NCBI GenBank assembly: GCA_951406725.2
Contig: OX597818.1
Span: forward strand, 28,210,001-28,274,000
Direction: 5' to 3'
Source of the DNA: Octopus vulgaris
Lineage: Eukaryota
Length of the DNA stretch: 64,000 nucleotides
Part shown: positions 30,652 to 60,786 of the stretch, piece by piece
Position numbering within the stretch: position 1 is the stretch's first letter
How the letters are laid out: each line of letters begins with the position of its first letter
The notes under the pieces: generated by a model
Seen by the model: the letters and a program-made list of their open reading frames with translations, nothing else
The model's database searches: none
What the model was told of the DNA's origin: nothing
Made by a program: the position numbers and the translations under genes

Positions 30652-32318
30652 ACAGTTGGCCATAAGTGGAAAACATTTATCAGTGCACAGATATAATTGA
30701 AGAAAATAGGTAGGATTATCGTCAAATCCTCAATGTTGACGAATTTGGGAAAAAAATGTCAACAAGAACTTTTCTGAAAAGAAAAGAGGCAATGACACTG
30801 TGTTATAAAGCACCCAAGAATAGACAAACACTTGTACTCAGAGGTAATGCCAAAGTTGAATGCAAATTAAAACCAATGCTAATTCATCATACAATACACC
30901 CAGGAACATTAAAAGGCAGTAACAAGCAATCTCTTTCAATAATTTGGGAACCGAATAAAATGGCTTGGGTGACAAAGCAGTTGTTTGAAGAATGTTTCAA
31001 TATGCCTTTTTGTTCCATGTTTGAAAAATATTGCAAAAAAAAAAAGTTTAGATTTCAAAGTTCTAATTTTAGATAATTCCCTTAGGCATCCCACCTCAAT
31101 GATTTAGATAGCAATGTGAAGGTTATATTTCTATCACCAAATACGACTCATTTACTACAGCCAAGGAGTGATTACCAAGAAGTGATTTCTACAATACATT
31201 CAAACCATATTATTTGCAAAGAACTTTCATGCAGGTAATTCAAGTTATAATCCAATCACACTTGAAGAATTTTGGGTGAAAATTGAGAAACAAGCAGTTG
31301 AAAACTTTCACAAGTCTTGGAAGAAGTAACAGGCAGCTGTATGAGAGCTGTCTGGCAGAATCTTTTACTTGAATGCACTAACGATTTTTTCAGTTTCAAT
31401 AACCCCAGCAACAAAGTTATTAATGAAATTGCTACAACTGGAAGATACTTCTGCTTTGAGGAATTAAGGAAATAGATTTGGAAAATGTTAGAGAATTAAT
31501 GGAGTTGTTTCAGATTAAAAAAACAAACTAAGTAATGACAATCTTTTTGGAATGAAGCATCAAAAGGCATATGAAAGAGAAATGAAAAGTAAACAGAAGA
31601 AATGGAAACCACACCCAAAGATATTTCAGTCAAAAAACTTCAAGAATTGTTACAAACAATTGAAAAAGCAAAAGAACTCATTCAAAAGATTGATTCAAAT
31701 GAAAAGAGATGCATGAACGTTCGTTGAGGGCTAGATAAGCAAATGGTTGCTATTGCAAAATCATGGAGGGAAGTAAAACAGCTACCACTGTTTAATGGAA
31801 GGTAGATACTATATTTTTTTTAATATACTCCTCAATTATTTAAAGTAAATACAATGCATTATAGATGTGTTTTATGGAGGAACATGGCCTAGTGGTTAGA
31901 GCAAGGAACTTGCAGTCAAAGGATCACGGGTTTGAATCTCAGACCAGGTGATGTGTGTGCTTATGAATGAAATACCTAAGCTCCACGCAGCTCCAGCAGA
32001 AGGTAATGGCAAACCTGCTGACTCCTTTGCCACAACTTTCTCTCACACTTTCCTCCTACATCTAGCAGCTCACCAGCATCCTGCCCAGGTGGGGGAATCT
32101 ATACACAATGAAACTGGCCCTTATGAGACAGGTATGGCTTGAGAAGGAACAAACAACAACATAGATGTGCTTTGATTGAGAAAAAAATGTTTATGATTTT
32201 GGTATTTCCAAGAGTTTGCTATAATAATTGCATTGGTTCTTAGGTTTGATTAATGTGGTTTTGGTATATGTGGAGTTTCAGGAGAATTAATCAACCACAC
32301 TAATCAAGGAATTCATGT
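30652..32318 (+). mobile_element. Tigger/pogo-like DDE transposon relic
   Basis: NVDE, STRTFL..KAPKNRQTLVL.GNA..KLKPMLI..NKMAWVT, followed by decayed LDN..H and SPNTTHLLQP. Confidence 0.8.
31876..32160 (+). mobile_element. tRNA-derived SINE nested in the Tigger relic (mirror 59510-59794)
   Basis: Head tggcctagtggttagagca..gggtttgaatctc; (AAC)n tail; imperfect TSD atagatgtg(t/c)ttt. Confidence 0.85.
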
Positions 32319-32639
32319 AATAGATATTCGACAAGCTTCTTTCCAGTTTCTGTTGTGTTGTTGCCACAGTTAGATATGAACTCTGTTACTATGGGTTTGC
32401 CTTCGGCTTCACATAATTTATTCTTGCGTCTTTTCTCTACAATGAACTAAGTAATTTGCACATGACTGCAATTGGTACGTATGTTTGTTTATAAATACCA
32501 TATATTTTCCATCTAATAACTGAAAAAGATAAAAAGTAAAATATATACTCTTCATTATCGAATAATCATATGAAATCATCAGTAAAACAAACTTGCAAAT
32601 TGACTAAACACAGGTTGACAGCTAGCTAAAGGGCAAGCA

Positions 32640-35600
32640 GTGAAAAATCTGAAGTCTAACTTAAGAAATTGAGGACTCTTTTCTACCATAGGCTGAATAG
32701 ACCCAATCAAGTGGTAGATCTGTCCCTGGACTTTCAAAGTCAGCATGGCCCGTATTCTGATTCAAGCTTTGCTCTGAAGGATGTCATATGAAAGGCAGAA
32801 TTCTGGTAGCAGATATTACGCAGAAACTTCACTGATTCCTCTTCTGTGTCTGTCAAAAGGAGTTGTAATGTCTCTGGAGGGTTGTAAATAGGAGGTAGTC
32901 TAATTTCATCGTTTGAGCAGCAGATTCCATCTCTTTCCTCTGGCCACTTTTTCGCACAACATATCTGGCAAGTAGAGGTCATTTCCCCAAGTTGGATATT
33001 TCCATGGCTGGCGTAGTCATAGGAGGAGTCGTAGTTAAAGGCTTTCAACAACCATCGTGAATTGCAAGTCCTAGAAATGCCATGAAACAATGATGGCCGC
33101 TTTTCAATTTGAAGTGGTTGGTCACATCATTGCTGTATGGTTTCACTATTTCATGCAGAGCAGTGGCAGTGGCATTCCTGCTTCATCAAACACCATGTCG
33201 TCCTTCATCATTTTGAGAGCGAACAGCACCTGTTGCAGTGGAATCCCTGCTTCGTTGAATGGCACATAGTCCTTCATCCTCTCAAGTGCTAGCAATGGCT
33301 GTTGCAATAGTGTACCTGCTTCATCAAATGGCATGTCGTCCTTCATCCTCTTGAGCATGAACAGTGGCAGTTGCAGTACCATCCATGCTGTGTTGAATGG
33401 CATGTTGTCCTTCATTCTCTCGAGCACGAGCAGCAGATATGGCAGCAGCATCCCTGCTTCGTCGAACGGCACACCATTCTTCATCCTCTTGAGCGGGAGC
33501 TGTGGATGTTGCAGTGGCATCCCTGCTTCATTGAATGGCAAGTCGTCCGTCATCTCCTCGAGCGCGAACAGCAGCAGTCACTGCAGCATCTTTGTTCTGC
33601 CAAGGTTCATGCCAACTGTCATCTTCCTCTGCTCTTCCAGCTGCCATCTGCACAGTATTCAGTGAGAGCATGATCGCACTTGCATTTACATCTTCGGTGA
33701 CATGCCTTCGGTTAGATCTACTTGCATCAGTGACCAATCAAAGTTCTTTTCTTAAGAGGCATTGTTTTTAGAGAATTAACCAGGGAGAACAATGAAATGT
33801 GAACAAATGACGTTTAAGTAAGCAAATCTAAACACGAATATAAATTGCGAAAAAATGTAATATATCTATATGCTCTGAGAAAGTGAGTATGTTTTGCAAG
33901 ATTTTGTGTACCAGTCAAATCTCGGGTTTTAAGTTAGGGGCAACCCAGCGTATGGACTACCTGTGATAAAGGAAATTAAATAGTGTGGCTACAGTGGTAG
34001 GTATATAAGTGTCAGTATGTTTGTTCAGTTTGAACATCGAGTTATGCACCACACAAACGTATGGCCGTCGGTGATACCACTACAGGTTCTAGCGTGAAAC
34101 AGCCTGCTCGCACACGTGGAAACCCACTCAGCAAGTCATTTACCGCAACAGAAACAGAAAAAGCAGTATCGAGAAGCCAGAAAAGCCGTCAACAACAAAT
34201 CTAAACCGTTGCATTTCGTCAAACTTAATTTTCTTGATAAAATCACAACATGAACGTCTCTACGACACAACTACCAACTCATGGTCTTTTGTTGATCTCA
34301 GCTCGCAACACCTACATGATGACCATTCTTTGACCTTTTTTGTCAACTCAGCAACTGAACTTTTTGTCCACTCAACAACCGATCTCTCCTTCCTACTGAC
34401 CTAACTCCATGGCTGTCCTTCTCGTCTACTGTCTGCTCTCTCTTTTTAAAGGCTTTTTTCTCTTTATCCATCTGACAACATGGACTGTTCAATTTTTCTT
34501 TTTATTTCTTTTAATAGACTTCGTTTTTTCTTCTTTTTCCTTTCTTTTTTCTTTTAAAAGACAGGGAATGATGTTCGCGTCACACAAACACAAAATCAAT
34601 ATATTTTTTTGCCGTTCGTAACAATAGCAATAAGTAAATATTAACTATTGAAAGGATAGAGGCAAAAATGTCCAAAAAATCACAGCATGATAAACTGGAA
34701 ACTTATGACCATAAACACATTAAATAAACCTCATTTAAAGTGTAAATTGTTGAAAAAGCATACATTTCAGAAACATGGGGTAGCTTATGAAAGTATACAA
34801 GTAAAAAAACCTACCACTTGTCAAAAGCCAAAAATGAAGTATGATCCTAGGTTGGACTCGACCGAGATAAATAGAAGTGATTTCGCTTAATGAAAAACAC
34901 TGAAGGTGTCTGATTGGTTAGATAATACAAATAAGTGTGATGAAATCTGCTGAACACAACTCACTGATGTGTGGTTGGCCAGAGGTCACCATTTCCCACT
35001 TAATTAGGGTACAATTAAATGGGGGAGGCAACTGTGTGCAAAAACTAATCAATCATTTGCACAGTTTAGGCATAATTGTGAAATAGCACAATTTACATAC
35101 AGTAGACATTAAAATTTACACCTGGGTTAAATCACACTTTCTTGGTTAGGAGTATGAAATGATGCTAAAGTTCAAGGAAAAAAATTTAACTCTCCATTCC
35201 ACACTTAATTGTGGGGCAATTACACATGGGAGACAACCGAGTGCAAAATTAAATTCAACCATCCTAGAGTTAACTGAGTAAATTAAAGTTTAGTCAGTGG
35301 GACTTATGAATTCACTACTCCATTTGTAAGACATGAGTAAAAGATGCGTCGACTTTTGTTTAAATTGACTGTTATTTCCAGAAGTTAAAATGATTTGCTG
35401 CAATCATATATGAACTCTAAAAGTAGTCCAAAGGGGCTCACTGCCTTCCCTAGGGGGGCAGAATTGAAGTGATAACGAATTTGCAATACTTTATCTTATG
35501 ATTGGCAAGAACCATGAAAAACTCCTGAGGTTCTGATGCTGTTTTATTGTGGCACTTTGAACTTTTATGGGTTAATGATTTAGGTTCATTGTTCCCAAGG

Positions 35601-36455
35601 GGATCATCTTGCTGAATTGAAATGGAAGTAAATGTGCCTCACTGTATCTTCATCTGTAGTGAATGAATAAAACTGAGTCAAAATTCATTTTATGGGACTA
35701 CCAATTATCGAAGCTATGACCCTTTGTTGTATTACAAGAGCCAAATTCAGTAAATGACTTGCCAGGACTTATGCCCCCTGGGGTCCCCTTGCTTGTTCCA
35801 GGTATAGACAGCATCTTCAACACCATCTTTAGGCAATGGGTAATCAATGTGTCCCCTAATGCTAAAATTGAGCATAAACTTCAAAAGTTATTAGGTACTA
35901 ATACAGTGTTAATGTGAACTTCAGTTGGTAAGTCAAAGGGGCTTACTACCCCTCCAGGGTCCCCTTGATAAGTTCAAATAAAGGTTCGTATGTTCACCTT
36001 CCTCTGTGAGCCATTGGTAATCAATATGTCTTGTTTTGTGAAAACCAAATGCCAACTCAACCAGTTTTGTTGCATTGATAATATCAACTTCAACATTCAT
36101 CAAAATCGGTTTACTACTCACCAAGGGGTCCTCTACCTGGATTTCTGTGCAAGTGCATGCTTGCAACTTTATTTGTAGGCCATAATCAAACAAAAGATTA
36201 ATTTTGGTGAAGATGGGAGGCAAACTGCAGGAATTATGGGGCCTTTATGCTGTAGTACTGCTGACTCCAAGAGAGGCTTAAGGAGGTTATCTGCATCTGG
36301 GGCTGGGGTACAATCGAGGTACAGAAAAATAAAATAGCCTATGATGCATAATAGAACTTCAGAAACCTATGTATGAAATTTGGTGCAAATTAGCTGTAAG
36401 ATGTAGAAATGCATGCAGTTACACAGACAGACAAAGAGAGAGAGAGCAAGATAGA
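32640..36455 (-). mobile_element. 3'-truncated Helitron (RepHel N-terminal region)
   Basis: CQICCAKKWPEERDGICCSND.IRLPP..PPETL..FLRNI..NSAFHMTSF..KVQGQIYHLIGS; 69-bp coding repeats at 33146-33600; (CTGT)n/ataggcta-type 5' end near 36330-36455. Confidence 0.8.
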
Positions 36456-36754
36456 TATGTGTGTGTATGTATGGATGTGTCTATATGTGCATATATATAT
36501 GTATCAGAAGATCATGTTTTTGATTCCTGAACCAGGCGGTGTGTTGTATCTTGTGCAAAACACTTCATTTCATGTTGCACCTGTCCACTTAGCTGTAAAT
36601 ATATAACCCTGTGATTGGTTGCCAATCCATTCAAGGGGTATCTTGTGATCTTGGTCACTTATTCACCATGGAAACTGAGTAACTACTACTTGAGACCTAC
36701 TACTTGGCAGAAATATTCAGGGGCTTGGTTTCTACTATACACACCCAAGTAAAC

Positions 36755-36792
<38 letters not shown>

Positions 36793-36797
<5 letters not shown>

Positions 36798-37106
36798 TCA
36801 TCATCATCAACATCATATAACATTCATTTTCCATACTGGCATAGGCAGGATGGTTTCACAGGAATTCACAATTCAGAAAACTGCATCAAGATCTGATGTC
36901 TGTTTAGGCATGCTTTCTGCAGGTTGATGCCCTTCCTAATGACAACCACTTTACAGAGTAATCTGAGTGCTTTTGATGTAGTACCAGCAGCAATGAGGCC
37001 ACCAAATAACTTGCAGGACAAGCCCCTCAATTGGAGTAATATTGAAGGACAGAGAAAGAAGGTGTCTTGCATTAGAAGAGAAACATTGCCACTTCAAATG
37101 GAGAGA
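36793..37106 (-). mobile_element. RTE 3' UTR/tail fragment
   Basis: (CAT)n tail and gatgcccttcctaatg..agtgctttt motif shared with other RTE ends. Confidence 0.7.
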
Positions 37107-37826
37107 AGTTTGGATTTGGTCATTCGACCATTCATTGACACCTGCATATTATCAGAAAATTCAGCAAATTGGGGTAGTAGGTCCTTCACAAACTTTTGGA
37201 GTTTAATCGCATGCAGAGAGTGAATGTCTGCTCTTCTTTGCTGTCACTTCTCACAAATGGACCTTTTTTGGACTGAATAGTGACTGGTGTTGAGAAATGG
37301 ATTCTCTATAAAAATGTTGAGTGCCAAAGAAAGTGGGTAGGGAAAGGAGAAACACTGGCACCCTAGGTTATAGGTCTTCACACTTGTAAGGTGTTGTTAT
37401 CTGTTTGGTGGGATATGAAAGGTTTTGTCCATTTTGAACTTTTAAACCCAAATCAAACAATAACAAATGAGATCTACTGCAAGCAGCTTGAGCAGCTTAA
37501 GTCAGCACTAGAAGAAAAACAATGCCCCACCCACCATATTCGCCGAACTTTACCCCGTTTGATTATCATTTATTCCACAGTCTTCAAAATCATTTGGATG
37601 GAAAAAATATGAACTCTGTAGATGAGGTCAGAACAGTACTGGAGGAGTATTTCTTATCATGGACAAGTGACTTTTGGAAGAGGGGTCTTGCAAGTCATCA
37701 AGATAGATGGAAGAGCATTGAAGAAAATGAAGGAGAGTATATTTTAGATTAAAAAAGAAATTGTTTATCTTAATTTTGAAAAATAAACGACGTATAAAAA
37801 ACTGCATTATTTATGGGATGACCCAA
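37104..37826 (+). mobile_element. Mariner 3' half (5' part deleted in this arm)
   Basis: LLSVWWDMKG, PHPPYSPNFTPFDYHLF; TIR aactgcattatttatgggatgacccaa-TA. Confidence 0.9.
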
Positions 37827-38039
37827 TACATGTGTCCATATATATTATTTATACTTTGCACATTATGATATAAACCCCCTGTTTTTGCTGTTATCTATAT
37901 CTAACGATATTGAAACATGTGACTTAATTTTGAAAGCAGATAAATTTTTGAAGTGCAGATGGCTGGAGCTTAAGTCACTAAAACTATTGAATTGCTTAAT
38001 ATTTTGAGAGGTACAGTTTAAAATTAGGTTGGTTTTTCA

Positions 38040-38912
38040 AAATCAAAGTAAAACCAGCTCTGACAAGCATAATTCTGGATAGAATAGTGAAACATAATTC
38101 TGGATAGAATAGTGAAACATATTGTGCTTAAAAACCATCAAAGAACAGCAACAAAAGTCACAGTAGAGCTGAACTACTACTTTGCCAACCTTATGTAAAC
38201 CATAACCATTTGTCCTGACCTCGATAAAGCTGGATGTCATGAAATGGTTGCAATTGTTAAACCACTCCTGTCCCCAACAACACTGATTAGCAGAAAAAAT
38301 GGTGTTTAGATTATCAGATCAATGATATAATCTTCTCTGATGAATTACCTGGAGACAGTCTATAGAAGAGTTAACCCCTGACTGTATGGCTCCTACTGGG
38401 AAGCATGAAGTCTGTGATGATTAGAGCAGTCATATCACAGAATTATTTTGGCTCTTAAGTTGTTTTACATGGCAGAGCTAATACAATTGATTATCTGAGT
38501 ATTTTGGCTGATTATGTCCATCCTATGGTACAAAAGTTGTTCCTTGATGGTTATACCATCTTCTAGGATGATAATGCACCAATTCTCATGGTGAATGTTA
38601 TTCAAAACTGATACGAAGAGCACAGGAGTGAAGTAGACCATTGGGATTGGCCCACAGAATCACTTGATCTCAATTTAATTTAACATTTGTGGAGCATTTT
38701 GGAAGTGCATGTGAGAAGTTGCTTCTCTTTGTCACCATTACTGAAAGAGCTAAATAGGTTTTACTTGAAGAATGGCTCAAAATCTGTTCAGAAACTGTAT
38801 TAATCAATACCCCAGCATATTAAAGTTGTGATTGAAGCCAAAGGTGATAAGCTCTGTATCAAATCATTAACTTCTATTTAACAAGGTGTTGCCATTATTT
38901 TGTCCAACCCTG
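38040..38912 (+). mobile_element. Tc1-like transposase relic (mirror ~50930-51760)
   Basis: Translates to F*DDNAPI...WPTESLDLNLI*HLW; terminus ccattattttgtccaaccctg. Confidence 0.75.
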
Positions 38913-39089
38913 TGTGTGTGTGTGTGTGTGTGTGTGTGCATGCGTGCGTGCATCATAGGTAAATCATAAATCTGTAAAAGAAGCACACTTTAAGTTATAG
39001 AACAGTATAGTATAAAGATAGATGAGGCTGGTCCATGGGATTACCCTGGGTTTCACATCAATAAAGCACTTACGTTTACAGCGAATCTA

Positions 39090-39319
39090 TCTCTTTACTA
39101 CCCACAAGGGGCTAAACACAGAGGGGACAAACAAGGACAGACAAACGGGTTAAGTCGATGAGATCGATTCCAGTGCGTAACTGGTACTTAATTTATCGAC
39201 CCTGAAAGGATGAAAGGCAAAGTCGACCTCGGCGGAATTTGAAATCAGAACGTAACGGCAGACGAAATATGGCTACGCATTTCGCCCGGTGTGCTAAAGT
39301 TTCTGCCAGCTCGCCGCCT
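39090..39319 (-). mobile_element. SINE (mirror 50513-50742)
   Basis: Head aggcggcgagctggcagaaac; core gtcgactttgcctttcatcctttc. Confidence 0.88.
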
Positions 39320-39559
39320 TTACAGCATATCATCAGACCTCAAAACCCATTGGTACATGGCCTCTCTAGAAAATGGAGAAGGAAAAGACTTTGTTACTCT
39401 GTCAACAACAGGGGAATGTCTCCCTTTGGCTTTTATTCATAATTGACTCTGTTATCATATGGGTCCCAGGATGCCAGCAAGAATTTCCTGAAGTGCAAAC
39501 AGGGTCCAAACCCTTCCATTCAGGAGTTAAGGATGTTCCCTGGGTCAATGGAGTCCTTT

Positions 39560-41520
39560 AATATACCCACCCATTTGGCTATGCAGTTTACAACACTTGG
39601 TTGCATTTATTTAGGGGCCTGGCTTCTCTAGGATTCTCAATGATATTACATGCAGAATTACTTCATCTTTCAGCCACCATGGCTGGCTGATGACATAGTG
39701 TGTCTCCTTTCCAGTATCCTGAAAGAGGATCCGTGGTTGGAGAGGCAATGCTTGAACAAGTTACTGGAGCATCTGATGCATCTCTGTGTATAGCTGTTGA
39801 CGATGTTGTATCTGCTGGTGTTGACGCTGTTGCTACTGCTGTTGTTATTGGTGCTGTTGGTGTTATTGGCACCATTAAATGTATTGATGGTGTTGGTGCT
39901 GTTACTGCTGGTGTAGGGGACCTCAGTGATGATGGTGCTGTTGATGGCGTTATAGTTGTCATCGATGGTATTGTTGGAGTTGATGTCGATGCTATCATGG
40001 TGAGTGGTGCTGTCACCGTTATTATAGTTATCATTTGTGATGGATCTGCTGCTTTTTCTGTAAGGGATACTGTTATTGCTATTGTTGATGTTGTTATCAC
40101 TGGCGGCAGTAGTGCTGCTGCTAATCCTGTTTGTGTTTCTACTGCTGCTGTTATTGATACTGACATTCCTGCTACTGTAGTAGTCGTCATAGAAGCTGCT
40201 GCTACTAGGGTTGCCTAGTACATCATCTTCATAGATAGGTCCCTTGGTTTCACAATGGCTTCCCACTTGGCATCTGTTGTAGTCCCTGCATGAGCATCTC
40301 ACATCCATCATGGTCTAGATGTGCTAATTAAAATGCTCTTAATATTTATAGGGCAGCTAAAAGAGACCCTAAGGTTGTGCCTGTTGAAAATGCATCTGCA
40401 TCTATGTGAATGTGTGAAGTGTTTATCTACTAGCCTATGGAAAATCCTACCTTCAGATGTAGGGAGAAGGAGTGGGGGAAAAAAACCAATGATATTTCCA
40501 TGGTACTTCCTTCTGCGGGTATTAGAGCCCAGCATGTAGGAGATGTGGTCCTGAAATCCACCAGCAGCTTGTGACTTGTTATAGTAGGAGCCTGCTGCAT
40601 CAAAAATTTCTTGGCTAGAGGGAAGGTTCATGATTCTCTCACTAATACCCTTTACTAGGTTTTTGAACACAATTGATTGGTGATGGGAGACTGTTGATGT
40701 ATGTCAGCCAGTCACGTGGTTTGCAGTTGAACCTGTATCTACTGGAGCCCAAGTCGAGCATGATGTCCAAGAAGTCTACTATGGTGAGATTGGTCTTGAT
40801 AGTAATTTTCAGTCCCATGGAGCCAGGGGTGCTAATTAGATCTTTCCTAAGCCTGTTTAGGGTGTGGCCATGGGCTCCTCTAATGATGGTCTGCACGTCA
40901 TCTTAATAGAGACCAAAAAAGACAGAGGGAAACTTCTTCAGAGTGTCGCATACATCAGCACTGTCATTAGCTCCCATTGCAATGTCAAAGGAGCCTACAG
41001 GGTCAGATTGCTTGACCCGGGTCAAGCTTTTATTGAGCAGTACTGTTTTCCTAGCATAATGACATCTGTGTCCCTGTCACTAATATCAGTGAAGCCCCTA
41101 GCAAAGGAAAGTGCTTTGACCTGTAACACTTTTGATATAAACAGGTAAAATTCAACTATGTCAAATTAGATGAACCTTGCTTTGCCTCCCCCTTGTTTGT
41201 ATTAAACCATGCAATCACCTCATTGGTGTTATGCCATAGGGAGAGGTTGGTGGCTCTCCTTATACTGTTGTTAATGTTTTCAGTATGTAATTGCTTGCTA
41301 GACTGATCTCGGATTTTGCTGGGTTAATCAGGTGGCATTTAGGGATTCAGGCTAAGCTTGGTTTATGGTTTGATGGTAGTAAAGGCATTCTTTCTTGCTA
41401 AAATCTCTACTCCATCTGCTATATCTAAGTCGCTGGCTAATTATTTGGCTTCACTGTTGATGTTGTTGTATGTGTGTGGGGAAGCATGTATATTGTATGT
41501 GTGTGGGTAATCTATGGGGT
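39560..41520 (-). mobile_element. Penelope-like element (RT C-terminus + GIY-YIG with Asn/Ser-rich insert)
   Basis: VDFLDIMLDL..KP..YIN, ISERI..SS.EIFD.A..YY, NIIGFFPP, CSC..C..G.C....IY. Confidence 0.85.
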
Positions 41521-42259
41521 TACCATGGATTTCACAGCCATAAAGTGCTTAGATTTACAATGTTATTTGTAATCTTGTTGACTAATGAAGTCTTTTCCTC
41601 CTCCATTTTCTAGAAGGGCCACTTGCTACAGAGGACATGTGTCATACAATCTCTGATTTTGTAACTAGGAAGTTTCTAGTTACAAAATCAGTGATTGTAT
41701 TACACTGTATTTTCTTTTTATCACATAGAAGTTAAACTACTGCCATACTTAGCACATGAGTGCCCACCACCAAAGGGATCCAATAAGATCCAAATCATGT
41801 GGTCTGGTGGTCTTGAAGCTAGGATGGCAAAAGTTATTTCCCACTTGCAATAAATAGCGAGTGCAGAAAGTGTATCAATAAACGTCTTCCTGGGGTTAAA
41901 GCAGTAATATTATCATCTCTTAGAGAACACACATGTTAAAGTGGCTATAAACATTATACAGGGGAACTTCGCTGTATGAGTGTCCCATTGTATGAGTAAT
42001 TCTGTAAAAGCCAAGGTTCATGTGAATTTTTGTCTTGAAGTACAAGCAAAAATCCACAGTACAAGCATGTTTCATACAATAACACTGCTCAGGCACATTT
42101 TCATATATTTTGAAAAGCAGGAAAAAGCAGACTTTTCTGGATATTTTTCTAATGAAATGAACTGCAAGTGTAAAAAAAATGAAGAAAGTGTGTCCAAAAA
42201 GCCTAAATTATGCAAAGTGAGACAGAAAACGCCAGTAATTCTTCTTTCTGAAGTCTTAA

Positions 42260-42822
42260 TGGAAGGAGAATCTCCTTCTAGACAGTAAACCTCCTTCCTC
42301 TCACTCTACTATCTTCCTCACGCACAAATTGTTCTATCCTTAAGGCAATTCTGTTAATAAAACCAGTTTACATATTTCTTTTGCATTCTCTATTTTTATA
42401 ATAGTAATTTTACTTCTAATTACACCATATCTGTTTTAAAACCCATAAAAAAATTATTTTTGGGTGGTTTTAGGTGGCTGGAACAAAATTAATTATATTT
42501 TAGTTAATTTCAATGAAGAAAATTGATTTGTAATATGAGTAAATCGTAAAACAAGCTCAGTCATGGAAAAATTAACCCTTTCAATACCAACTTGGCTGAA
42601 ACTGCCTCTGGCTCTGTAGTATGAATGTCTTTTCAAAATTTCTAGATTAAAATCTTTCATCAAACCTTAGTCACAATTTATGTTCCTAACACTAGCTTAA
42701 TGATAACTAAGTTATTTTACTAAATTCCTTGTTAAGTTTAAAATTAATTAAAAGAAACACAGATCATCTCAAAATAAATACAGTAACAAAAGGGTTAAAC
42801 TCATACTGCGAGTTATCACTGT
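42260..42822 (+). mobile_element. Tigger-like 3' fragment (mirror ~47010-47570)
   Basis: ggctggaac..attaatt..ttcaatg motif; terminus aactcatactgcgagttatcactg-TA. Confidence 0.55.
42576..42794. mobile_element. piggyBac-type MITE (mirror 47038-47256)
   Basis: TTAA|cccttt...aaaggg|TTAA. Confidence 0.8.
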
Positions 42823-50270: not shown

Positions 50271-51982
50271 TTAAAGGACTCCATTGACCCAGGGAACATC
50301 CTTAACTCCTGAATGGAAGGGTTTGGACCCTGTTTGCACTTCAGGAAATTCTTGCTGGCATCCTGGGACCCATATGATAACAGAGTCAATTATGAATAAA
50401 AGCCAAAGGGAGACATTCCCCTGTTGTTGACAGAGTAACAAAGTCTTTTCCTTCTCCATTTTCTAGAGAGGCCATGTACCAATGGGTTTTGAGGTCTGAT
50501 GATATGCTGTAAAGGCGGCGAGCTGGCAGAAACTTTAGCACACCGGGCGAAATGCGTAGCCATATTTCGTCTGCCGTTACGTTCTGATTTCAAATTCCGC
50601 CAAGGTCGACTTTGCCTTTCATCCTTTCGGGGTCGATAAATTAAGTACCAGTTACGCACTGGGATCGATCTCATCGACTTAACCCGTTTGTCTGTCCTTG
50701 TTTGTCCCCTCTGTGTTTAGCCCCTTGTGGGTAGTAAAGAGATAGATACGCTGTAAACGTAAGTGCTTTATTGATGTGAAACCCAGAGTAATCCCATGGA
50801 CCAGCCTCATCTATCTTTATACTATACCGTTCTATAACTTAAAGTGTGCTTCTTTTACAGATTTATGATTTACCTATGATGCACGCACGCATGCACACAC
50901 ACACACACACACACACATCACACACACACACAGGGTTGGACAAAATAATGGCAACACCTTGTTAAATAGAAGTTAATGATTTGATACAGAGCTTATCACC
51001 TTTGGCTTCAATCACAACTTTAATATGCTGGGGTATTGATTAATACAGTTTCTGAACAGATTTTGAGCCATTCTTCAGGTAAAACCTATTTAGCTCTTTC
51101 AGTAATGGTGACAAAGAGAAGCAACTTCTCACATGCACTTCCAAAATGCTCCACAAATGTTAAATTAAATTGAGATCAAGTGATTCTGTGGGCCAATCCC
51201 AATGGTCTACTTCACTCCTGTGCTCTTCGTATCAGTTTTGAATAACATTCACCATGAGAATTGGTGCATTATCATCCTAGAAGATGGTACAACCATCAAG
51301 GAACAACTTTTGTACCATAGGATGGACATAATCAGCCAAAATACTCAGATAATCAATTGTATTAGCTCTGCCATGTAAAACAACTTAAGAGCCAAAATAA
51401 TTCTGTGATATGACTGCTCTAATCATCACAGACTTCATGCTTCCCAGTAGGAGCCATACAATCAGGGGTTAACTCTTCTATAGATTGTCTCCAGGTAATT
51501 CATCAGAGAATTGATCTGATAATCTAAACACCATTTTTTCTGCTAATCAGTGTTGTTGGGGACAGGAGTGGTTTAACAATTGCAACCATTTCATGACATC
51601 CAGCTTTATCGAGGTCAGGACAAATGGTTATGGTTTACACAAGGTTGGCAAAGTAGTAGTTCAGCTCTACTGTGACTTTTTTTGCTGTTCTTTGATGGTT
51701 TTTAAGCACAATATGTTTCACTATTCTATCCAGAATTATGCTTGTCAGAGCTAGTTTTACTTTGATTTTGAAAAACCAACCTAATTTTAAACTGTACCTC
51801 TCAAAATATTTAGCAATTCAATAGTTTTAGTGACTTAAGCTCCAGCCATCTGCACTTCAAAAATGTATCTGCTTTCAAAATTAAGTCACATGTTTCAATA
51901 TCGTTAGATATAGATAACAGCAAAAACAGGGTGTTATATCATAATGTGCAAAGTATAAATAATATATATATGGACACATGTA

Positions 51983-53119
51983 TTGGGTCATCCCATAAAT
52001 AATGCAGTTTTTTATACGTCGTTTATTTTTCAAAATTAAGATAAACAATTTCTTTTTTAATCTAAAATATACTCTCCTTCATTTTCTTCAATGCTCTTCC
52101 ATCTATCTTGATGACTTGCAAGACACCTCTTCCAAAAGTCACTTGTCCATGATAAGAAATACTCCTCCAGTACTGTTCTGACCTCATCTACAGAGTTCAT
52201 ATTTTTTCCATCCAAATGATTTTGAAGACTGTGGAATAAATGATAATCAAACAGGGTAAAGTTCGGCGAATATGGTGGGTGGGGCATTGTTTTTCTTCTA
52301 GTGCTGACTTAAGCTGCTCAAGCTGCTTGCAGTAGATCTCATTTGTTATTGTTTGATTTGGGTTTAAAAGTTCAAAATGGATAAAACCTTTCATATCCCA
52401 CCAAACAGATAACAACACCTTACAAGTGTGAAGACCTATAACCTAGGGTGCCAGTGTTTCTCCTTTCCCTACCCACTTTCTTTGGCACTCAACATTTTTA
52501 TAGAGAATCCATTTCTCAACACCAGTCACTATTCAGTCCAAAAAAGGTCCATTTGTGAGAAGTGACAGCAAAGAAGAGCAGACATTCACTCTCTGCATGC
52601 GATTAAACTCCAAAAGTTTGTGAAGGACCTACTACCCCAATTTGCTGAATTTTCTGATAGTATGCAGGTGTCAATGAATGGTCGAATGACCAAATCCAAA
52701 CTTCTGTACTAGTCCCTCAACAGTTATGATGGGATTTTGTTCCACCAGGATTCGCAGGGCATCCTTGTCTACAGATCTTCTAGGACGAGGCTCATCTTCT
52801 AGGCTGTAATTTCTGGCTTGGAATTTCTGGAACCACCATTGAGACTGACTTAGGATTATTGTCCATTTATATTCCTCGCACTTTCCATTGAACTCATAAA
52901 CCAAAATATGTCAAATATGTTCTTTGTTACTTCCATTGTAGCTTTGAAAAAATAACTATTAAAATCTAACTGCACTCTTCAAAACTTGCACTAAGAATAA
53001 ATACAAAGTAAATTTACTATCTGCTTTTATAGCAAGTTGATACTGGTAGTTTATTCTGTCTCCCTCCAACTTTTAGTACATGTAATTGAAAAAACTGCAT
53101 TATATATGGGATGACCCAA
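51983..53119 (-). mobile_element. Mariner with both TIRs (intact counterpart of 37104-37826)
   Basis: TA-ttgggtcatcccata...tatgggatgacccaa-TA; WFQKFQARNYSLEDEPR. Confidence 0.92.
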
Positions 53120-53759
53120 TACATATATACAGACTGGGATAGCTGTGAATTTGTATAATTGTCAGTAAGAGAGATAGCTAAATAAAATGCAATGCTACCA
53201 GTATTTTGTGCAACCCTCTATATACACAAACATACTTGCTTGTGCATGTACACACACATGAACATATATACACACAGATACTCAGGTCGTCTAAAAGAAT
53301 GTATACACATTTTAACAGGTGATAATAATTTAATTTTCATTTATTTTTCAGATTTAACCCATCAGAAATAATGAACAGAGCCAGAATAAACTTTGAACAA
53401 AGGAAATCTTTCCTAAAGTGCCATTGTAAGTTCGAATATGAAGGAGGGAGATTCAAACAGATCTACCTGCACAATTCACAATCATTCAAATTAGGGATGA
53501 GTTTGAAGCTGTGGAATTATTCAGAATGTTTACATGACTGTGATCATTGATGAGCCCAAATAACTATCACCAAAGGAAGGATATTGCTAGAGTTTAAAAA
53601 AAAAATCAGTGTGGCATGGGAGTTGTAAGACAGGAATTTCAAAATCAAGCATTCATCACATTTGCAACACTGTAACTGGAAAAGTTACATTCCAAGAAGA
53701 GTTCATATTCTCAGTGAAGATGATCCAGACCAATGAATGGAATTTTGTGGTATGACAAA

Positions 53760-54836
53760 GTGTAAAATTGGGTACAAGCAGCATCAGTTGTAGTGCATAA
53801 GACAGAAGATTGCACCAGTATGGTTATGTGATGTGTATGGATGAGGACAGCTGTATAAAGAAGTGCCAGTCTCTAAAAGTGGAGGGAACCTGTGGAAGAG
53901 AAAGACTCAGGAAGATGTGAGATGAAGTGATGAAAAATGATTATCAGATGTTGAGCTTCACAGAGATCACACAGGACAGATTTAATTGACAATTGACTGT
54001 GCTTGAGAAAACCCAGCTAAGAAATATCCATGTCGGCACCCCTTCCCTCCCCCACAACCCACTTATGCTTACCAGGTTTTTCCCTCCCTTCCATTCTCCC
54101 TCATGTATCTACCTATACTCTATATGGTCATGTTAAATCCCTGTACCACAACATTTTCTCCTAATATCCCTCAATCTACCCATATCAAGACAATTACCCT
54201 CCTAGGACAACTATCCCTCATAGAACAATTCCTCCCAACGAAAACTACCCCATAGGACAATTACAACTCCTGGTTAATTACCCCTCTCCAATATATTAAG
54301 AAGTTTAAATCATCATCTGTTGTCCTCAGAGGGTAAATGTTCTAAACTCCCATTTACCAGTGCCCACTCATTACATCCCGCACCTCTAGCTCTCACTCTC
54401 TTTATGAAATCTTGTGAACACATCCACTCTTTCACCCTCTCCAATCCCCAGTCCACTTCCCTATATACCCTAACCTATACCTTGGGTGTGTGGCCTCTAC
54501 CCCTCCTTGTCACATCTTCACCATCTGTCTTTCCTCTCTCTCTCTCCATCTGAAGTAGCAATGTTTCTCTTCTATGCAAGACACCTTCTTTCTCTGTCCT
54601 TCAATATTACTCCAATTGAGGGGCTTGTCCTGCAAGTTACTTGGTGGCCTCACTGCTGCTGGTACTACATCAAAAGCACTCAGATTACTCTGTAAAGTGG
54701 TTGTCATTAGGAAGGGCATCAATCTGCAGAAAGCATGCCTAAACAGACGTCAGATCTTGATGCAGTTTTCTGAATTGTGAATTCCTGTGAAACCATCCTG
54801 CCTATGCCAGTATGGAAAATGAATGTTAAATGATGT

Positions 54837-54866
<30 letters not shown>
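53760..54866 (+). mobile_element. Degraded RTE 3' region
   Basis: LHQYGYVMCMDEDSCIKKC..VEGTCGR; (GAT)n tail at ~54835-54866. Confidence 0.75.
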
Positions 54867-54867
<1 letters not shown>

Positions 54868-55189
54868 ATATATATATATTTAATATGTTTACTTGGGTGT
54901 GTATAGTAGAAAACAAGCCCCTGAATATTTCTGCCAAGTAATAGGTCTCAAGTAGTAGTTACTCAGTTTCCATGGTAAATAAGTGACCAAGATCACAAGA
55001 TACCCCTTGAATGGATTGGCAACCAATCACAGGGTTATATATTTACAACTAAGTGGACAGGTGCAACATGAAATGAAGTGTTTTGCACAAGATACAACAC
55101 ACCACCTGGTTCAGGAATCAAAAACATGATCTTCTGATACATATATATATATATGCACATATAGACACATCCATACATATGCACACATA

Positions 55190-58100
55190 TCTATCTTGCT
55201 CTCTCTCTCTTTGTCTGTCTGTGTAACTGCATGCATTTGTACATCTTACAGTTAATTTTCACCAAATTTCATACATAGGTTTCTGAAGTTCTATTATGCA
55301 TCATAGGCTATTTTATTTTTCTGTACCTCGATTGTACCCCACCCCCAGGTGCAGATAACCCCCTTAAGCCTCTCTTGGAGTCAGCAGTACTACAGCATAA
55401 AGGCCCCATAATTCCTGCAGTTTGCCTCCCATCTTCACCAAAATTAATCTTTTGTTTGCTTATGGCCTACAAATAAAGTTGCAAGCATGCACTTGCACAG
55501 AAATCCAGGTAGAGGACCCCCTGGTGAGTAGTAAACCGATTTTGATGAATGTTGAAGTTGATATTATCAATGCAACAAAACTGGTTGAGTTGGCGTTTGG
55601 TTTTCACAAAACAAGACATATTGATTACCAATGGCTCACAGAGGAAGGTGAACATACGAACCTTTATTTGAACTTATCAAGGGGACCCTGGAGGAGTAGT
55701 AAGCCCCTTTGACTTACCGACTGAAGTTCACATTAACATTGTATTAGTACCTAATAACTTTTGAAGTTTATGCTCAATTTTAGCATTAGGGGACACATTG
55801 GTTACCCATTGCCTAAAGATGGTGTTGAAGATGCTGTCTATACCTGGAACAAGCAAGGGGACTCCCAGGGGGCATAAGTCCTGGCAAGTCATTTACTGAA
55901 TTTGGCTCTTGTAATACAACAAAGGGTCATAGCTTCGATAATTGGTAGTCCCATAAAATGAATTTCGACTCAGTTGTTATTCATTTACTACAGATGAAGA
56001 TACAGAGAGGCACATTTACTTCCATTTCAATTCAGCAAGACGATCCCCTTGGGAGCAATGAACCTAAATCGTTAACCCATAAAAGTTCAAAGTGCCACAA
56101 TAAAACAGCATCAGAACCTCGGGAGTTAATCATGGTTCTTGCCAATCATAAGATAAAGTATTGCAAATTCGTTATCACTTGAATTCTGCCCCCCTAGGGA
56201 GGGCAGTGAGCCCCTTTGGACCACTTTTAGAGTTCATATATGATTGCAGCAAAGCATTTTAACTTCTGGAAATAACAGTCAATTTAAACATAAGTCGATG
56301 CATCTATTACTCATGTCTTACAAATGGAGTAGTGAATTTATAAGTCCCATTGACTAAACTTTAGTTTACTTAGTTAACTTTAGGATGGTTGAATTTAATT
56401 TTGCACTCGGTTGTCTCCCATGTGTAATTGCCCCACAATTAAGTGTGGAATGGAGAGTTAATTTTTTTTCCTTGAACTTTAGCATCATTTCATACTCCTA
56501 ACCAAGAAAGTGTGATTTAACCCAGGTGTAAATTTTAATGTCTACTGTATGTAAATTGTGCTATTTCACAATTATGCCTAAACTGTGCAAATGATTGATT
56601 AGTTTTTGCACACCATTTTTTGCCTCCCCCATTTAATTGTACCCTAATTAAGTGGGAAATGGTGACCTCTGGCCAACCACACATCAGTGAGTTGTGTTCA
56701 GCAGATTTCATCACACTTATTTGTATTATCTAACCAATCAGACACCTTCAGTGTTTTTCATTAAGCGAAATCACTTCTATTTATCTCGGTCGAGTCCAAC
56801 CTAGGATCATACTTCATTTTTGGCTTTTGACAAGTGGTAGGTTTTTTTACTTGTATACTTTCATAAGCTACCCCATGTTTCTGAAATGTATGCTTTTTCA
56901 ACAATTTACACTTTAAATGAGGTTTATTTAATGTGTTTATGGTCATAAGTTTCCAGTTTATCATGCTGTGATTTTTTGGACATTTTTGCCTCTATCCTTT
57001 CAATAGTTAATATTTACTTATTGCTATTGTTACGAACGGCAAAAAAATATATTGATTTTGTGTTTGTGTGACGCGAACATCATTCCCTGTCTTTTAAAAG
57101 GAAAAAGAAAGGAAAAAGAAGAAAAAACGAAGTCTATTAAAAGAAATAAAAAGAAAAATTGAACAGTCCATGTTGTCAGATGGATAAAGAGAGAAAAGCC
57201 TTTAAAAAGAGAGAGCAGACAGTAGACCTGAAGGACAGCCATGGAGTTAGGTCAGTAGGAAGGAGAGATCGGTTGTTGAGTGGACAAAAAGTTCAGTTGC
57301 TGAGTTGACAAAAAAGGTCAAAGAATGGTCATCATGTAGGTGTTGCGTGCTGAGATCAACAAAAGACCATGAGTTGGTAGTTGTGTCGTAGAGACGTTCA
57401 TGTTGTGATTTTATCAAGAAAATTAAGTTTGACGAAATGCAACGGTTTAGATTTGTTGTTGACGGCTTTTCTGGCTTCTCGATACTGCTTTTTCTGTTTC
57501 TGTTGCGGTAAATGACTTGCTCAGTGGGTTGCCACGTGTGCGAGCAGGCTGTTTCACGCTAGAACCTGTAGTGGTATCACCGACGGCCATACGTTTGTGT
57601 GGTGCATAACTCGATGTTCAAACTGAACAAACATACTGACACTTATATACCTACCACTGTAGCCACACTATTTAATTTCCTTTATCACAGGTAGTCCATA
57701 CGCTGGGTTGCCCCTAACTTAAAACCCGAGATTTGACTGGTACACAAAATCTTGCAAAACATACTCACTTTCTCAAAGCACATAGATATATTACATTTTT
57801 TCGCAATTTATATTCGTGTTTAGATTTGCTTGCCTTACTTAAACGTCATTTGTTCACATTTCATTGTTCTCCCTGGTAAATTCTCTAAAAACAATGCCTC
57901 TTAAGAAAAGAACTTTGATTGGTCACTGATGCAAGTAGATCTAACCGAAGGCATGTCACCGAAGATGTAAATGCAAGTGCGATCATGCTCTCACTGAATA
58001 CTGTGCAGATGGCAGCTGGAAGAGCAGAGGAAGATGACAGTCGGCATGAACCTTGGCAGAACAAAGATGCTGCAGTGACTGCTGCAGTGACTGCTGCTGT

Positions 58101-59030
58101 TCGCGCTGGAGGAGATGACGGACGACTTGCCATTCAATGAAGCAGGGATGCCACTGCAACATCCACAGCTCCCGCTCAAGAGGATGAAGGATGGTGTGCC
58201 GTTCGACGAAGCAGGGATGCTGCTGCCATATCTGCTGCTCGTGCTCGAGAGAATGAAGGACAACATGCCATTCAACACAGCATTGATGCTACTGCAACTG
58301 CCACTGCTTATGCTCAAGAGGATGAAGGACGACATGCCATTTGATGAAGCAGGTACACTATTGCAACAGCCACTGCTAGCACTTGAGAGGATGAAGGACT
58401 ATGTGCCATTCGACGAAGCAGGGATTCCACTGCAACAGGTGCTGTTCGCTCTCAAAATGATGAAGGACGACATGGTGTTTGATGAAGCAGGAATGCCACT
58501 GCCACTGCTCTGCATGAAATAGTGAAACCATACAGCAATGATGTGGCCAACCACTTCAAATTGAAAAGCGGCCATCATTGTTTCATGGCATTTCTAGGAC
58601 TTGCAATTCACGATGGTTGTTGAAAGCCTTAAACTACGACTCCTCCTATGACTACGCCAGCCATGGAAATATCCAACTTGGGGAAATGACCTCTACTTGC
58701 CAGATATGTTGTGCGAAAAAGTGGCCAGAGGAAAGAGATGGAATGTGCTGCTCAAACGATGAAATTAGACTACTTCCTATTTACAACCCTTCAGAGACAT
58801 TACAACTCCTTTTGACAGACACAGAAGAGGAATCAGTGAAGTTTCTGCGTAATATCTGCTACCAGAATTCTGCCTTTCATATGACATCCTTCAGAGCAAA
58901 GCTTGAATCAGAATACGGGCCATGCTGACTTTGAAAGTCCAGGGACAGTTCTACCACTTGATTGGGTCTATTCAGTCTATGGTAGAAAAGAGTCCTCAAT
59001 TTCTTAAGTTAGACTTCAGATTTTTCACTG
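55190..59030 (+). mobile_element. Helitron, mirror copy
   Basis: ORF 58578-58928 mirrors 32740-33090. Confidence 0.8.
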
Positions 59031-59351
59031 CTTGCCCTTTAGCTAGCTGTCAACCTGTGTTTAGTCAATTTGCAAGTTTGTTTTACTGATGATTTCATAT
59101 GATTATTCGATAATGAAGAGTATATATTTTACTTTTTATCTTTTTCAGTTATTAGATGGAAAATATATGGTATTTATAAACATAAACATACGTACCAATT
59201 ACAGTCATGTGCAAATTACTTAGTTCATTGTAGAGAAAAGACGCAAGAATAAATTATGTGAAGCCGAAGGCAAACCCATAGTAACAGAGTTCATATCTAA
59301 CTGTGGCAACAACACAACAGAAACTGGAAAGAAGCTTGTCGAATATCTATT

Positions 59352-60623
59352 ACAGGAATTCCTTGATTAGTGTGGTTGATTAATTCTCCTGAAACTCCAC
59401 ATATACCAAAACCACATTAATCAAACCTAAGAACCAATGCAATTATTATAGCAAACTCTCGGAAATACCAAAATCATAAACATCTTTTTCTCAATCAAAG
59501 CACATCTATGTTGTTGTTTGTTCCTTCTCAAGCCATACCTGTCTCATAAGGGCCAGTTTCATTGTGTATAGATTCCCCCACCTGGGCAGGATGCTGATGA
59601 GCTGCTAGATGTAGGAGGAAAGTGTGAGAGAAAGTTGTGGCAAAGGAGTCAGCAGGTTTGCCATTACCTTCTGCTGGAGCTGCGTGGAGCTTAGGTATTT
59701 CATTCATAAGCACACACATCACCTGGTCTGAGATTCAAACCCGTGATCCTTTGACTGCAAGTTCCTTGCTCTAACCACTAGGCCATGTTCCTCCATAAAA
59801 CACATCTATAATGCATTGTATTTACTTTAAATAATTGAGGAGTATATTAAAAAAAATATAGTATCTACCTTCCATTAAACAGTGGTAGCTGTTTTACTTC
59901 CCTCCATGATTTTGCAATAGCAACCATTTGCTTATCTAGCCCTCAACGAACGTTCATGCATCTCTTTTCATTTGAATCAATCTTTTGAATGAGTTCTTTT
60001 GCTTTTTCAATTGTTTGTAACAATTCTTGAAGTTTTTTGACTGAAATATCTTTGGGTGTGGTTTCCATTTCTTCTGTTTGCTTTTCATTTCTCTTTCATA
60101 TGCCTTTTGATGCTTCATTCCAAAAAGATTGTCATTACTTAGTTTTTTTTTTTAATCTGAAACAACTCCATTAATTCTCTAACATTTTCCAAATCTATTT
60201 CCTTAATTCCTCAAAGCAGAAGTATCTTCCAGTTGTAGCAATTTCATTAATAACTTTGTTGCTGGGGTTATTGAAACTGAAAAAATCGTTAGTGCATTCA
60301 AGTAAAAGATTCTGCCAGATAGCTCTCATACAGCTGCCTGTTACTTCTTCCAAGACTTGTGAAAGTTTTCAACTGCTTGTTTCTCAATTTTCACCCAAAA
60401 TTCTTCAAGTGTGATTGGATTATAACTTGAATTACCTGCATGAAAGTTCTTTGCAAATAATATGGTTTGAATGTATTGTAGAAATCACTTCTTGGTAATC
60501 ACTCCTTGGCTGTAGTAAAGGAGTCGTATTTGGTGATAGAAATATAACCTTCACATTGCTATCTAAATCACTGAGGTGGGATGCCTAAGGGAATTATCTA
60601 AAATTAGAACTTTTAAATCTAAA
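59352..60623 (-). mobile_element. Tigger/pogo relic, mirror copy cut by the duplication breakpoint
   Basis: Reverse complement of 31047-32318. Confidence 0.8.
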
Positions 60624-60786
60624 ATGTGTTTGTATTATTTTTTTGCTCAAACCCTTTGAAACATTAGCAGTACCTCATCCTCAGTTCTGTATCACTCCTT
60701 CATGCAAGATGTTGTGTGCCACACCTACTAATGCTTAACTATTAGGTCATCAAGCATGAAATTTGTAGAGAAGAAAAAAGTTTGCT
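60621..60786 (+). repeat. Direct 166-bp copy of 28434-28599
   Basis: aaaatgtgtttgtatt...gaaaaaagtttgct appears identical; includes the mariner TIR at 60742. Confidence 0.97.

What the first reader, a model, noticed from the sequence alone, without database searches (positions are those of the whole stretch)
31047..60623. ~29.6-kb genomic palindrome with 13.7/15.5-kb arms and a 429-bp spacer
Seen: 31047-44702 is the reverse complement of 45132-60623. Mirror coordinates sum to ~89832-89834 inside and 91670 outside a single 1.84-kb indel. The outer end cuts through a Tigger relic and the inner end through a SINE, so it is not bounded like a transposon (no TSD, no TE termini). Known: long, closely spaced inverted repeats are unstable and usually collapse in assemblies. 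Inference: a real inverted segmental duplication that has persisted long enough to diverge.
Basis: partly seen in the sequence, partly recalled or inferred. Interest (0 to 1): 0.85.

Follow-up and report, generated by a model that had tools for sequence, protein, structure and literature searches.

The report
Young palindrome with borrowed arm differences
A 14-15 kb stretch of repeat-rich animal DNA sits next to its own reversed copy, stitched in by short pieces that match nearby DNA, likely the scar of one recent replication-repair accident whose two arms probably differ because they carry different alleles rather than because the structure is old.

Summary
Confirmed: 31047-44702 mirrors 45132-60623 (about 123 substitutions, 18 gaps, no N). 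Older paralogues on the same chromosome keep the unrearranged order. So the right arm is the added copy, 401 bp were lost at the join, and the 1,838-bp indel is a loss from the left arm.

The spacer is a reversed copy of 28339-28733 plus 36 ancestral bases, and a second 166-bp copy of the same site caps the outer end. The four junctions have 2-4 bp microhomology. This fits a multi-switch replication or repair event (FoSTeS/MMBIR type), not a fold-back, a transposon or a simple haplotig join.

'Persisted long enough to diverge' is weakly supported. The inner 2.57 kb has no substitution (23 expected), differences come in runs, and both arm types show up as majority paths in other animals' contigs. 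One such contig ends exactly at the outer junction; a contig of another species reads through it. No read-level proof in cis was possible.

The arms hold repeat relics and a non-coding block found upstream of a local Ig-like gene family. The scan noted smaller (about 300-bp) inverted duplications on other DNA. Verdict: real, known kind, modest interest.

The parts
28339..28733 (+). Source site of both templated inserts: about 210 bp of locus-specific flank plus the end of a mariner-type relic
   Evidence: 393/395 identical to the spacer. Among 40 scored candidates in the genome, the spacer is the only other 99% copy; other mariner copies match only from about 28550 on, at 90-93%. Transposase_1 hit at 28609-29202.
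30714..31076 (+). DDE_1 (pogo/Tigger-type) relic; runs across the left arm's outer edge and is cut in the right arm
   Evidence: Pfam PF03184 E=1e-7; junction alignment
31047..44702 (+). Left arm: the copy in the original place, continuous with the left flank
   Evidence: same order and orientation as 60785+ in paralogue P1
37103..37104 (.). Point where 1,838 bp are missing from the left arm only, with about 3-4 bp shared across the join
   Evidence: The segment is present in the right arm and in paralogue P1
42133..44702 (+). Inner 2,570 bp with no substitution between arms (two small indels); 1,871-bp perfect stem next to the spacer
42827..44372 (.). Non-coding block shared with a local family (10 places on contig C5, 27.4-28.7 Mb, the two arms included); lies upstream of a promoter-like block of an Ig-like gene family
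   Evidence: (stops and non-triplet indels in all aligned copies)
44378..44702 (+). Multi-copy short repeat (SINE by recall), cut about 60 bp before its end
44701..45095 (-). Templated insert 1: reversed copy of 28339-28733; 2-bp and 4-bp microhomology at its ends
45096..45131 (-). 36 bp (40 with the microhomology) of ancestral sequence that followed 44702; kept only on the inverted copy
   Evidence: Aligns to P1 and P2 in continuity with the right arm
45132..60623 (-). Right arm: the added inverted copy
52706..54543 (-). 1,838-bp ancestral segment kept in the right arm
   Evidence: 37 substitutions and no gap against P1
53600..56100 (-). Tract where the right arm is nearly identical to paralogue P1 (1-5 differences per 500 bp against mostly 9-35 elsewhere): likely ectopic gene conversion
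60621..60786 (+). Templated insert 2: direct copy of 28434-28599; 3-bp and 2-bp microhomology at its ends
   Evidence: 166/166 identical; junctions
60785..64000 (+). Ancestral downstream flank resumes; 401 bp that lay before it in the paralogues are absent from the window
   Evidence: P1 matches 60785-64874 at 94.8%; the lost piece is in P1, P2 and five older regions

Best explanation
The right arm is an inverted copy of the left arm inserted where about 400 bases were lost, and it likely arose recently in one replication or break-repair event with four template switches. Shown: the order is left arm, reversed 395-bp piece from 16 kb upstream, 36 ancestral bases plus the reversed arm, a 166-bp piece from the same upstream site, then the old downstream flank; the junctions carry 2, 4, 3 and 2 bp of microhomology. 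Inferred: a stalled or broken nascent strand jumped between two places (about 44.7-45.1 kb and 28.3-31.0 kb) by microhomology priming, as in FoSTeS/MMBIR. Inferred, less firmly (about 55% within this reading): the arms started identical. The left arm still has an allelic partner on ordinary chromosomes, so its outer part has been replaced by another allele, through a meiotic crossover or a phase switch in the assembly, while the inverted arm kept the founder haplotype. The 0.9% divergence is then borrowed allelic variation, and the true clock is the identical inner 2.57 kb. The structure is most likely neutral.
For: Unrearranged order in P1 (93-96%) and P2 (80-90%), and the lost 401 bp in P1, P2 and five older regions. 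Inserts match one local site at 393/395 and 166/166. Any path that uses all four junctions in cis must contain the arm twice in opposite orientation (reasoning from the junction list). No N in the window; the nearest gap in the DNA I fetched is about 103 kb downstream. Searches with two arm pieces find only the two arms and P1 at 94% or more, so no separate ancestral haplotig turned up (40 candidates scored each). Public contigs (table 8): X2 record 8 ends exactly at 60623 and X5 record 24 ends at 60613, one base before the last arm difference. Both are where a graph holding both continuations would branch. X6 record 32 (organism B) lays only 577 of 659 letters and runs on past 60623. In arm parts without a paralogue, three X2 contigs differ from the right arm at 1, 2 and 1 letters where the left arm differs at 5, 12 and 6; X5 and X3 contigs at the outer end differ at 5 and 3 letters where the left arm differs at 5 and 3. 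0 substitutions in 2,570 bp against 23 expected; 83 polarised sites fall into 27 runs, p=0.0005. Short microhomology plus templated insertions are the junction types listed for human template-switch rearrangements (PMC11293582 passages).
Against: No read or contig spanning any junction was shown: the joint, loose-end and piece tables were cut to the best-supported rows and swamped by repeats. The contig evidence is indirect, gives counts and not letters, bears on one junction only, and would also fit a heterozygous inversion. X2 or X5 may be the assembled animal. X3's contig stops at 60515 and says nothing. The inserts' identity to their source does not by itself prove youth (2 differences seen, 5 expected at the arm rate, P=0.12). 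The outer arm divergence is uneven (about 0.8% in the middle, 2-3% at 35047-37047), and conversion near the spacer could also give the gradient. Polymerase-theta or end-joining repair gives similar inserts and cannot be excluded from sequence.
Confidence: 0.62

Rival explanations
1. Real and old: the same duplication, but the arms diverged in place, and arm-to-arm gene conversion or hairpin repair keeps the part next to the spacer identical.
For: Left-derived (46) and right-derived (37) changes are about equal overall. Conversion is active at this locus (tract shared with P1). Arm-to-arm conversion is documented in human Y palindromes (PMC8600007 passages). Insert-versus-source identity does not reject it (P=0.12).
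Against: It predicts that right-arm alleles are never the majority in an animal, yet X2's contigs are right-arm-like at 19 or more of 23 sites (sites are not independent). The organism B contig reads through the outer junction place.
Confidence: 0.17
2. Real and young, with the inverted copy taken largely from the homologous chromosome at the time of the event (inter-homologue template switch), so allelic differences were built in from the start.
For: Allelic-scale divergence; the inverted copy starts 36-40 bp beyond where the left arm stops, which in this isomer needs a template other than the nascent strand (order 3-1-2-4 of PMC5453318, passages). Interchromosomal events are listed among human cases.
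Against: It needs an extra switch to explain the identical inner 2.57 kb. A crossover between arms flips the spacer and removes the 36-bp argument. X2 looks right-arm-like at both positions.
Confidence: 0.11
3. Assembly artefact: two haplotypes (for example an ancestral one and one with a simple inversion) were joined into a false inverted duplication, or a fold-back read was used.
For: Arm divergence is of allelic size, and both arm types occur in other animals. Three of the four junctions alone describe a simple inversion. No spanning read was seen.
Against: The fourth junction (45095/45096) joins, by 4 bp, two places within 40 and 395 bp of the other breakpoints. An overlap assembler would not make such a join, and a random chimera would not land there. 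No gap in the window. A fold-back read gives identical arms and a local or adapter spacer, not a spacer copied from 16 kb away. Contig depths in arm parts without a paralogue against parts with one are closer to 1:1.5 in X5 (83-100 vs 134-166) than in X6 (40-49 vs 101-109), as expected if X5 has two arms, although the tool warns these are not copy numbers.
Confidence: 0.09
4. A giant foldback or TIR transposon.
For: Long inverted repeats; a mariner fragment lies in the spacer.
Against: The arms are host sequence with local paralogues only; the ends cut through old repeats; no TSD; no intact transposase between the arms.
Confidence: 0.01

Closest known systems
FoSTeS/MMBIR complex rearrangements with templated insertions (junction types in PMC11293582; discussed in PMC3907307)
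   Same: Several junctions, 2-4 bp microhomology, inserts copied from the same chromosome, small loss at the rejoin.
   Different: Found in an invertebrate assembly, not as a de novo patient allele. Both inserts come from one 395-bp site 2.3-2.7 kb outside the duplicated block.
Four-point template switch, type 3-1-2-4 or 3-2-1-4 (PMC5453318)
   Same: Leave, copy the opposite strand backwards, return further on; gives an inverted repeat, with the 36-bp piece as the inverted spacer.
   Different: The copied piece is 15.5 kb and two further switches intervene; that paper states it does not model long-range or multiple switches.
Fold-back inverted duplication with terminal deletion (PMC3907307)
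   Same: Inverted duplication with a short spacer; some of those junctions also carry insertions.
   Different: There the spacer is non-duplicated sequence (766-70,466 bp) and the chromosome end is lost. Here the spacer is a copy, and only 401 bp are lost.
DUP-TRP/INV-DUP (PMC11293582)
   Same: Iterative switches; the same junctions allow several haplotype conformers.
   Different: No inverted low-copy repeat at a junction; only 166 bp is in three copies.
Sex-chromosome palindromes (PMC8600007; PMC8327919 listing only)
   Same: Multi-kb arms around a spacer; conversion possible.
   Different: Arms about 99.1% identical by substitutions, not over 99.9%; duplicated spacer; no intact gene found in the arms.

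Membership tests
Template-switch complex rearrangement (FoSTeS/MMBIR type) | Short microhomology at the junctions | tested here: met
   2, 4, 3 and 2 bp at 4 of 4 junctions; the 4-bp and one 2-bp value rest on paralogue P1 as the ancestral read-through
Template-switch complex rearrangement (FoSTeS/MMBIR type) | Templated insertions from nearby DNA | tested here: met
   395 bp (393/395) and 166 bp (166/166) from 28339-28733
Template-switch complex rearrangement (FoSTeS/MMBIR type) | No long homology at the breakpoints | tested here: met
   Donor read-throughs diverge within a few bases of each junction
Template-switch complex rearrangement (FoSTeS/MMBIR type) | All junctions in cis on one molecule | tested here: inconclusive
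   In cis in the gap-free assembly; no spanning public contig was displayed
Template-switch complex rearrangement (FoSTeS/MMBIR type) | Single event made by a replicative enzyme, as opposed to end-joining | not testable with these tools
   Inference from junction anatomy only
Fold-back inverted duplication-deletion | Spacer is non-duplicated original sequence | tested here: not met
   393 of the 429 spacer bases are a reversed copy of upstream DNA
Fold-back inverted duplication-deletion | Distal chromosome lost, capped by telomere or translocation | tested here: not met
   The ancestral flank resumes at 60785; 401 bp lost
DUP-TRP/INV-DUP | [quoted passage not shown] | tested here: not met
   Microhomology junctions only; arm in two copies
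Conversion-maintained palindrome (Y/X type) | Arm identity above 99.9% along the arms, unique spacer | tested here: not met
   About 99.1% by substitutions plus 18 gaps; spacer duplicated
Conversion-maintained palindrome (Y/X type) | Genes in the arms; shared across species | tested here: inconclusive
   No Pfam hit for 5 of 5 arm-internal ORFs; the shared block has no common reading frame; one organism B contig reads through the outer junction place. Short exons could be missed.
TIR/foldback transposon | TSD, defined termini, dispersed copies | tested here: not met
Haplotig false duplication or fold-back chimera | Half depth per arm; junctions absent from independent molecules; gap or homology at the join | tested here: inconclusive
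   No gap and no homology at the joins; contig ends at the predicted branch in 2 of 3 organism A runs; raw-read depth not available

The most novel reading that the evidence does not exclude
A 30-kb, tightly spaced palindrome is segregating in wild populations of a mollusc. One arm recombines with ordinary chromosomes while the inverted arm keeps the founder haplotype, so arm divergence rises outwards from the spacer and records recombination, not age. The event also doubled a conserved upstream block of an Ig-like gene and moved it from about 16 kb to about 30 kb from the promoter-like block, inside a cluster built from nested inverted duplications, and may change that gene's expression.
Probability: 0.2. 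Interest if true: 0.55.

Novelty: new member of a known kind. Interest (0 to 1): 0.3.

Why it matters
Mostly as a clean worked example: a base-resolved, four-junction inverted duplication in an invertebrate, with in-genome outgroups that give the state before the event. It is also a caution that arm-to-arm divergence in an autosomal palindrome may not date it, because only one arm has an allelic partner. If the allele is polymorphic, the distance from the spacer at which the arms start to differ measures recombination since its origin, which is testable with a few long-read genomes. No function is shown.

Tried and rejected
Direct junction proof from public runs: one lay of 4 of the 24 listed runs (X2, X3, X5, X6). 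All were contigs, repeats swamped the tables (528 joints, 2,552 loose ends and 330,935 pieces not shown), and none of the displayed rows bridges a junction.

Table 3 'other letters' as population alleles: rejected, because 38 of the 39 places I checked carry the P1 paralogue's base.

Expression: no RNA holder listed; this is no evidence either way.

A coding gene in the arms: the frame at 43734-43862 has 8 matches on C5, the two arms included, and looked like an exon, but the alignment of 8 copies shows stops and non-triplet indels in all, so I rejected it as coding. Pfam found nothing in 5 arm-internal ORFs. Of 117 long ORFs downstream, most read as transposon proteins by eye; 12 were scanned, with 3 mobile-element hits.

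The 1,838-bp piece as an insertion into the right arm: rejected, as it is in P1 and half of it is at background divergence from P1.

Selection as the cause of the identical inner part: rejected, as divergence from P1 there is at background level (9-33 per 500 bp).

An alternative threading of the same junctions (divergent arms, 2.6-kb spacer) has the same copy numbers but needs different short-range adjacencies, which long reads would resolve; not tested.

Paper searches found no paper on such a structure in octopus; one search (false duplication plus palindrome) found none. The scan has no notes on this place or on look-alikes.

Full report
OBSERVATION. The inverted repeat is there as described: arms of 13,656 and 15,492 bp around 429 bp, with 133 mismatching columns (about 123 without one misaligned microsatellite) and 18 gaps, one of 1,838 bp. 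The window has no N. It lies at C5:28,210,001-28,274,000 of a 2.8-Gb assembly. The host is probably an octopus; this is recalled from its SINE and RTE repeats, and the only tool hint is that the nearest Atlas clusters for a neighbouring exon are mostly molluscan.

STATE BEFORE THE EVENT. The genome holds its own outgroups. Paralogue P1 (C5 about 28.474-28.504 Mb, minus strand, 92-96%) and P2 (about 28.67-28.70 Mb, mostly 80-90%) carry the inner arm sequence followed by the sequence that in the window starts at 60785 (P1) or a little further on (P2). In P1, 441 bp lie between the equivalents of 44702 and 60785. Forty of them survive on the right arm (45092-45131) and 401 are gone from the window but present in P1, P2 and five older regions. 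So the left arm is in the original place and the right arm is an added inverted copy. The 1,838-bp segment is in P1 and the right arm, so it was lost from the left arm.

JUNCTIONS. The spacer is not original unique DNA. 44701-45095 is a reversed copy of 28339-28733 (393/395), and 60621-60786 is a direct copy of 28434-28599 (166/166). About 210 bp of that source is locus-specific, so this is a copy of that site and not a new mariner insertion. The four junctions share 2, 4, 3 and 2 bp with their donors. All switches run between two small areas: the break zone at 44.7-45.1 kb and the zone at 28.3-31.0 kb. Any path through all four junctions must hold the arm twice in opposite orientation. The spacer can be read in two isomers related by a crossover between arms, so whether the first switch was within or between strands cannot be decided.

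MECHANISM (inferred). A stalled or broken fork primed repeatedly by microhomology, as in FoSTeS/MMBIR. The simple fold-back model needs a non-duplicated spacer and a lost chromosome end (PMC3907307, passages), and neither holds. DUP-TRP/INV-DUP needs an inverted low-copy repeat at one junction (PMC11293582, passages); none is there. In shape it is a 15-kb, multi-switch version of the four-point event of PMC5453318 (passages), a lead taken from earlier scan notes.

IS IT REAL? Of 24 runs listed I laid four. All were short-read contigs and the tables were cut, so no junction-spanning piece was displayed. Indirect signs: X2 record 8 ends exactly at 60623 and X5 record 24 exactly one base before the last arm difference at 60614, both places where a graph holding both continuations would branch. 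X6 record 32 (organism B) runs 82 unlike letters past 60623, as an unrearranged locus would. X3's piece stops at 60515 and is uninformative. Either X2 or X5 could be the assembled animal, but they come from different studies. These signs concern one junction and would also fit an inversion allele. Against an artefact: no gap, no homology at the joins, and a fourth junction that neither haplotype of an inversion heterozygote would supply. I put reality at about 0.9.

IS IT OLD? Probably not. The inner 2,570 bp has no substitution where 23 are expected at the mean rate, and the stem next to the spacer is perfect for 1,871 bp. Against P1, 46 differences are left-derived, 37 right-derived and 1 is triallelic; the 83 two-state sites fall into 27 runs (p=0.0005). 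Much of the peak at 35-37 kb coincides with a tract (53600-56100) where the right arm is almost the same as P1, likely an ectopic conversion. In arm parts that P1 does not cover, X2's contigs differ from the right arm at 4 letters over spans where the left arm differs at 23. X5's contigs differ at 2, 8 and 5 letters (3, 14 and 5 arm sites), X3's at 2 and 3 (3 and 3 sites), and X6's at 3, 12, 2 and 2 (3, 14, 2 and 6 sites); X5 and X6 also show 17 gap bases where the left arm lacks 12+5. These are counts, not letters. They suggest that both arm types are ordinary alleles. The simplest account is that the left arm's outer part was exchanged with an ordinary chromosome, by crossover or by an assembly phase switch. 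Zero of 2,570 bounds divergence below about 0.12%, a few hundred thousand years at generic animal rates of 2-4e-9 per site per year (rate recalled, not measured; void if conversion acts). Against this reading: the inserts' match to their source does not reject the arm rate (P=0.12), and conversion near the spacer, known from Y palindromes (PMC8600007, passages), could give the same gradient.

STABILITY. In yeast dsDNA, instability falls steeply with spacer length (about 40-fold from 12 to 20 bp), though long single-stranded DNA removes this protection (PMC10164571, abstract and introduction). A 429-bp spacer makes persistence unsurprising.

CONTENT AND SETTING. No intact gene was found in the arms. 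The block at 42.8-44.4 kb is non-coding and recurs at 10 places on C5 27.4-28.7 Mb. In the older units it lies about 7-15 kb upstream of a promoter-like block that ends in a splice-donor motif. In four older units an Ig-like exon follows 21-28 kb further on; here it follows after 77 kb, and 7 open copies were found on C5 (Atlas scores 0.90-0.93, a lead only). The link between block, promoter and exon is inferred from spacing, with no transcript data. The whole locus is one side of an older inverted duplication (roughly 28.24-28.33 Mb against 28.39-28.50 Mb, 88-97%), so the region is rearrangement-prone.

VERDICT. A real, probably young inverted duplication of a known mechanistic kind; interest 0.3. 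Searches found no paper on this locus or on such a structure in octopus; subscription papers are not covered. No supplements were read.

Noticed in passing
G000:C5 about 28,244,000-28,324,000 vs 28,388,000-28,504,000: The window locus is mirrored by an older, larger inverted duplication at 88-97% identity; a 100-N assembly gap lies near its axis at 28,376,608.
   Followed up: partly
G000:C5 about 28,437,000-28,474,000 (L067, L068, L047, L046, L011): About 37 kb of interstitial telomere-type hexamer array that truncates paralogue P1 within its promoter-like block.
   Followed up: no
G000:C5:28,205,705-28,210,544 (reaches window 1-544): Tandem array with a period of about 503 bp and 99.6% identity between copies.
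   Followed up: no
G000:C5:28,281,036-28,283,894 vs 28,292,611-28,295,572 (L024-L026): A second inverted pair, about 2.9-kb arms at 93-97%, in Ty3/gypsy-like sequence by eye, just downstream of the window.
   Followed up: no
L059:9237-9626 + and six further places on C5 27.59-29.10 Mb: Tandem family of Ig-like exons with open frames, 40-89% identical to this one; no Pfam hit; nearest Atlas clusters are unnamed, mostly molluscan proteins.
   Followed up: partly
window 33164-33575 and 58093-58513: Degenerate 69-bp tandem repeat (about 5.5 copies) with an open frame of 143 aa in both arms, beside an ORF that looks Helitron-like by recall; no Pfam hit.
   Followed up: no
window 1416-1988 vs 2351-2936: Older small inverted repeat, about 580-bp arms at 85% with a 360-bp spacer, flanked by further mirrored pieces.
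   Followed up: no
window 60614: An arm difference 10 bp from the outer junction; it could be a mutation made during the event or a standing allele.
   Followed up: no
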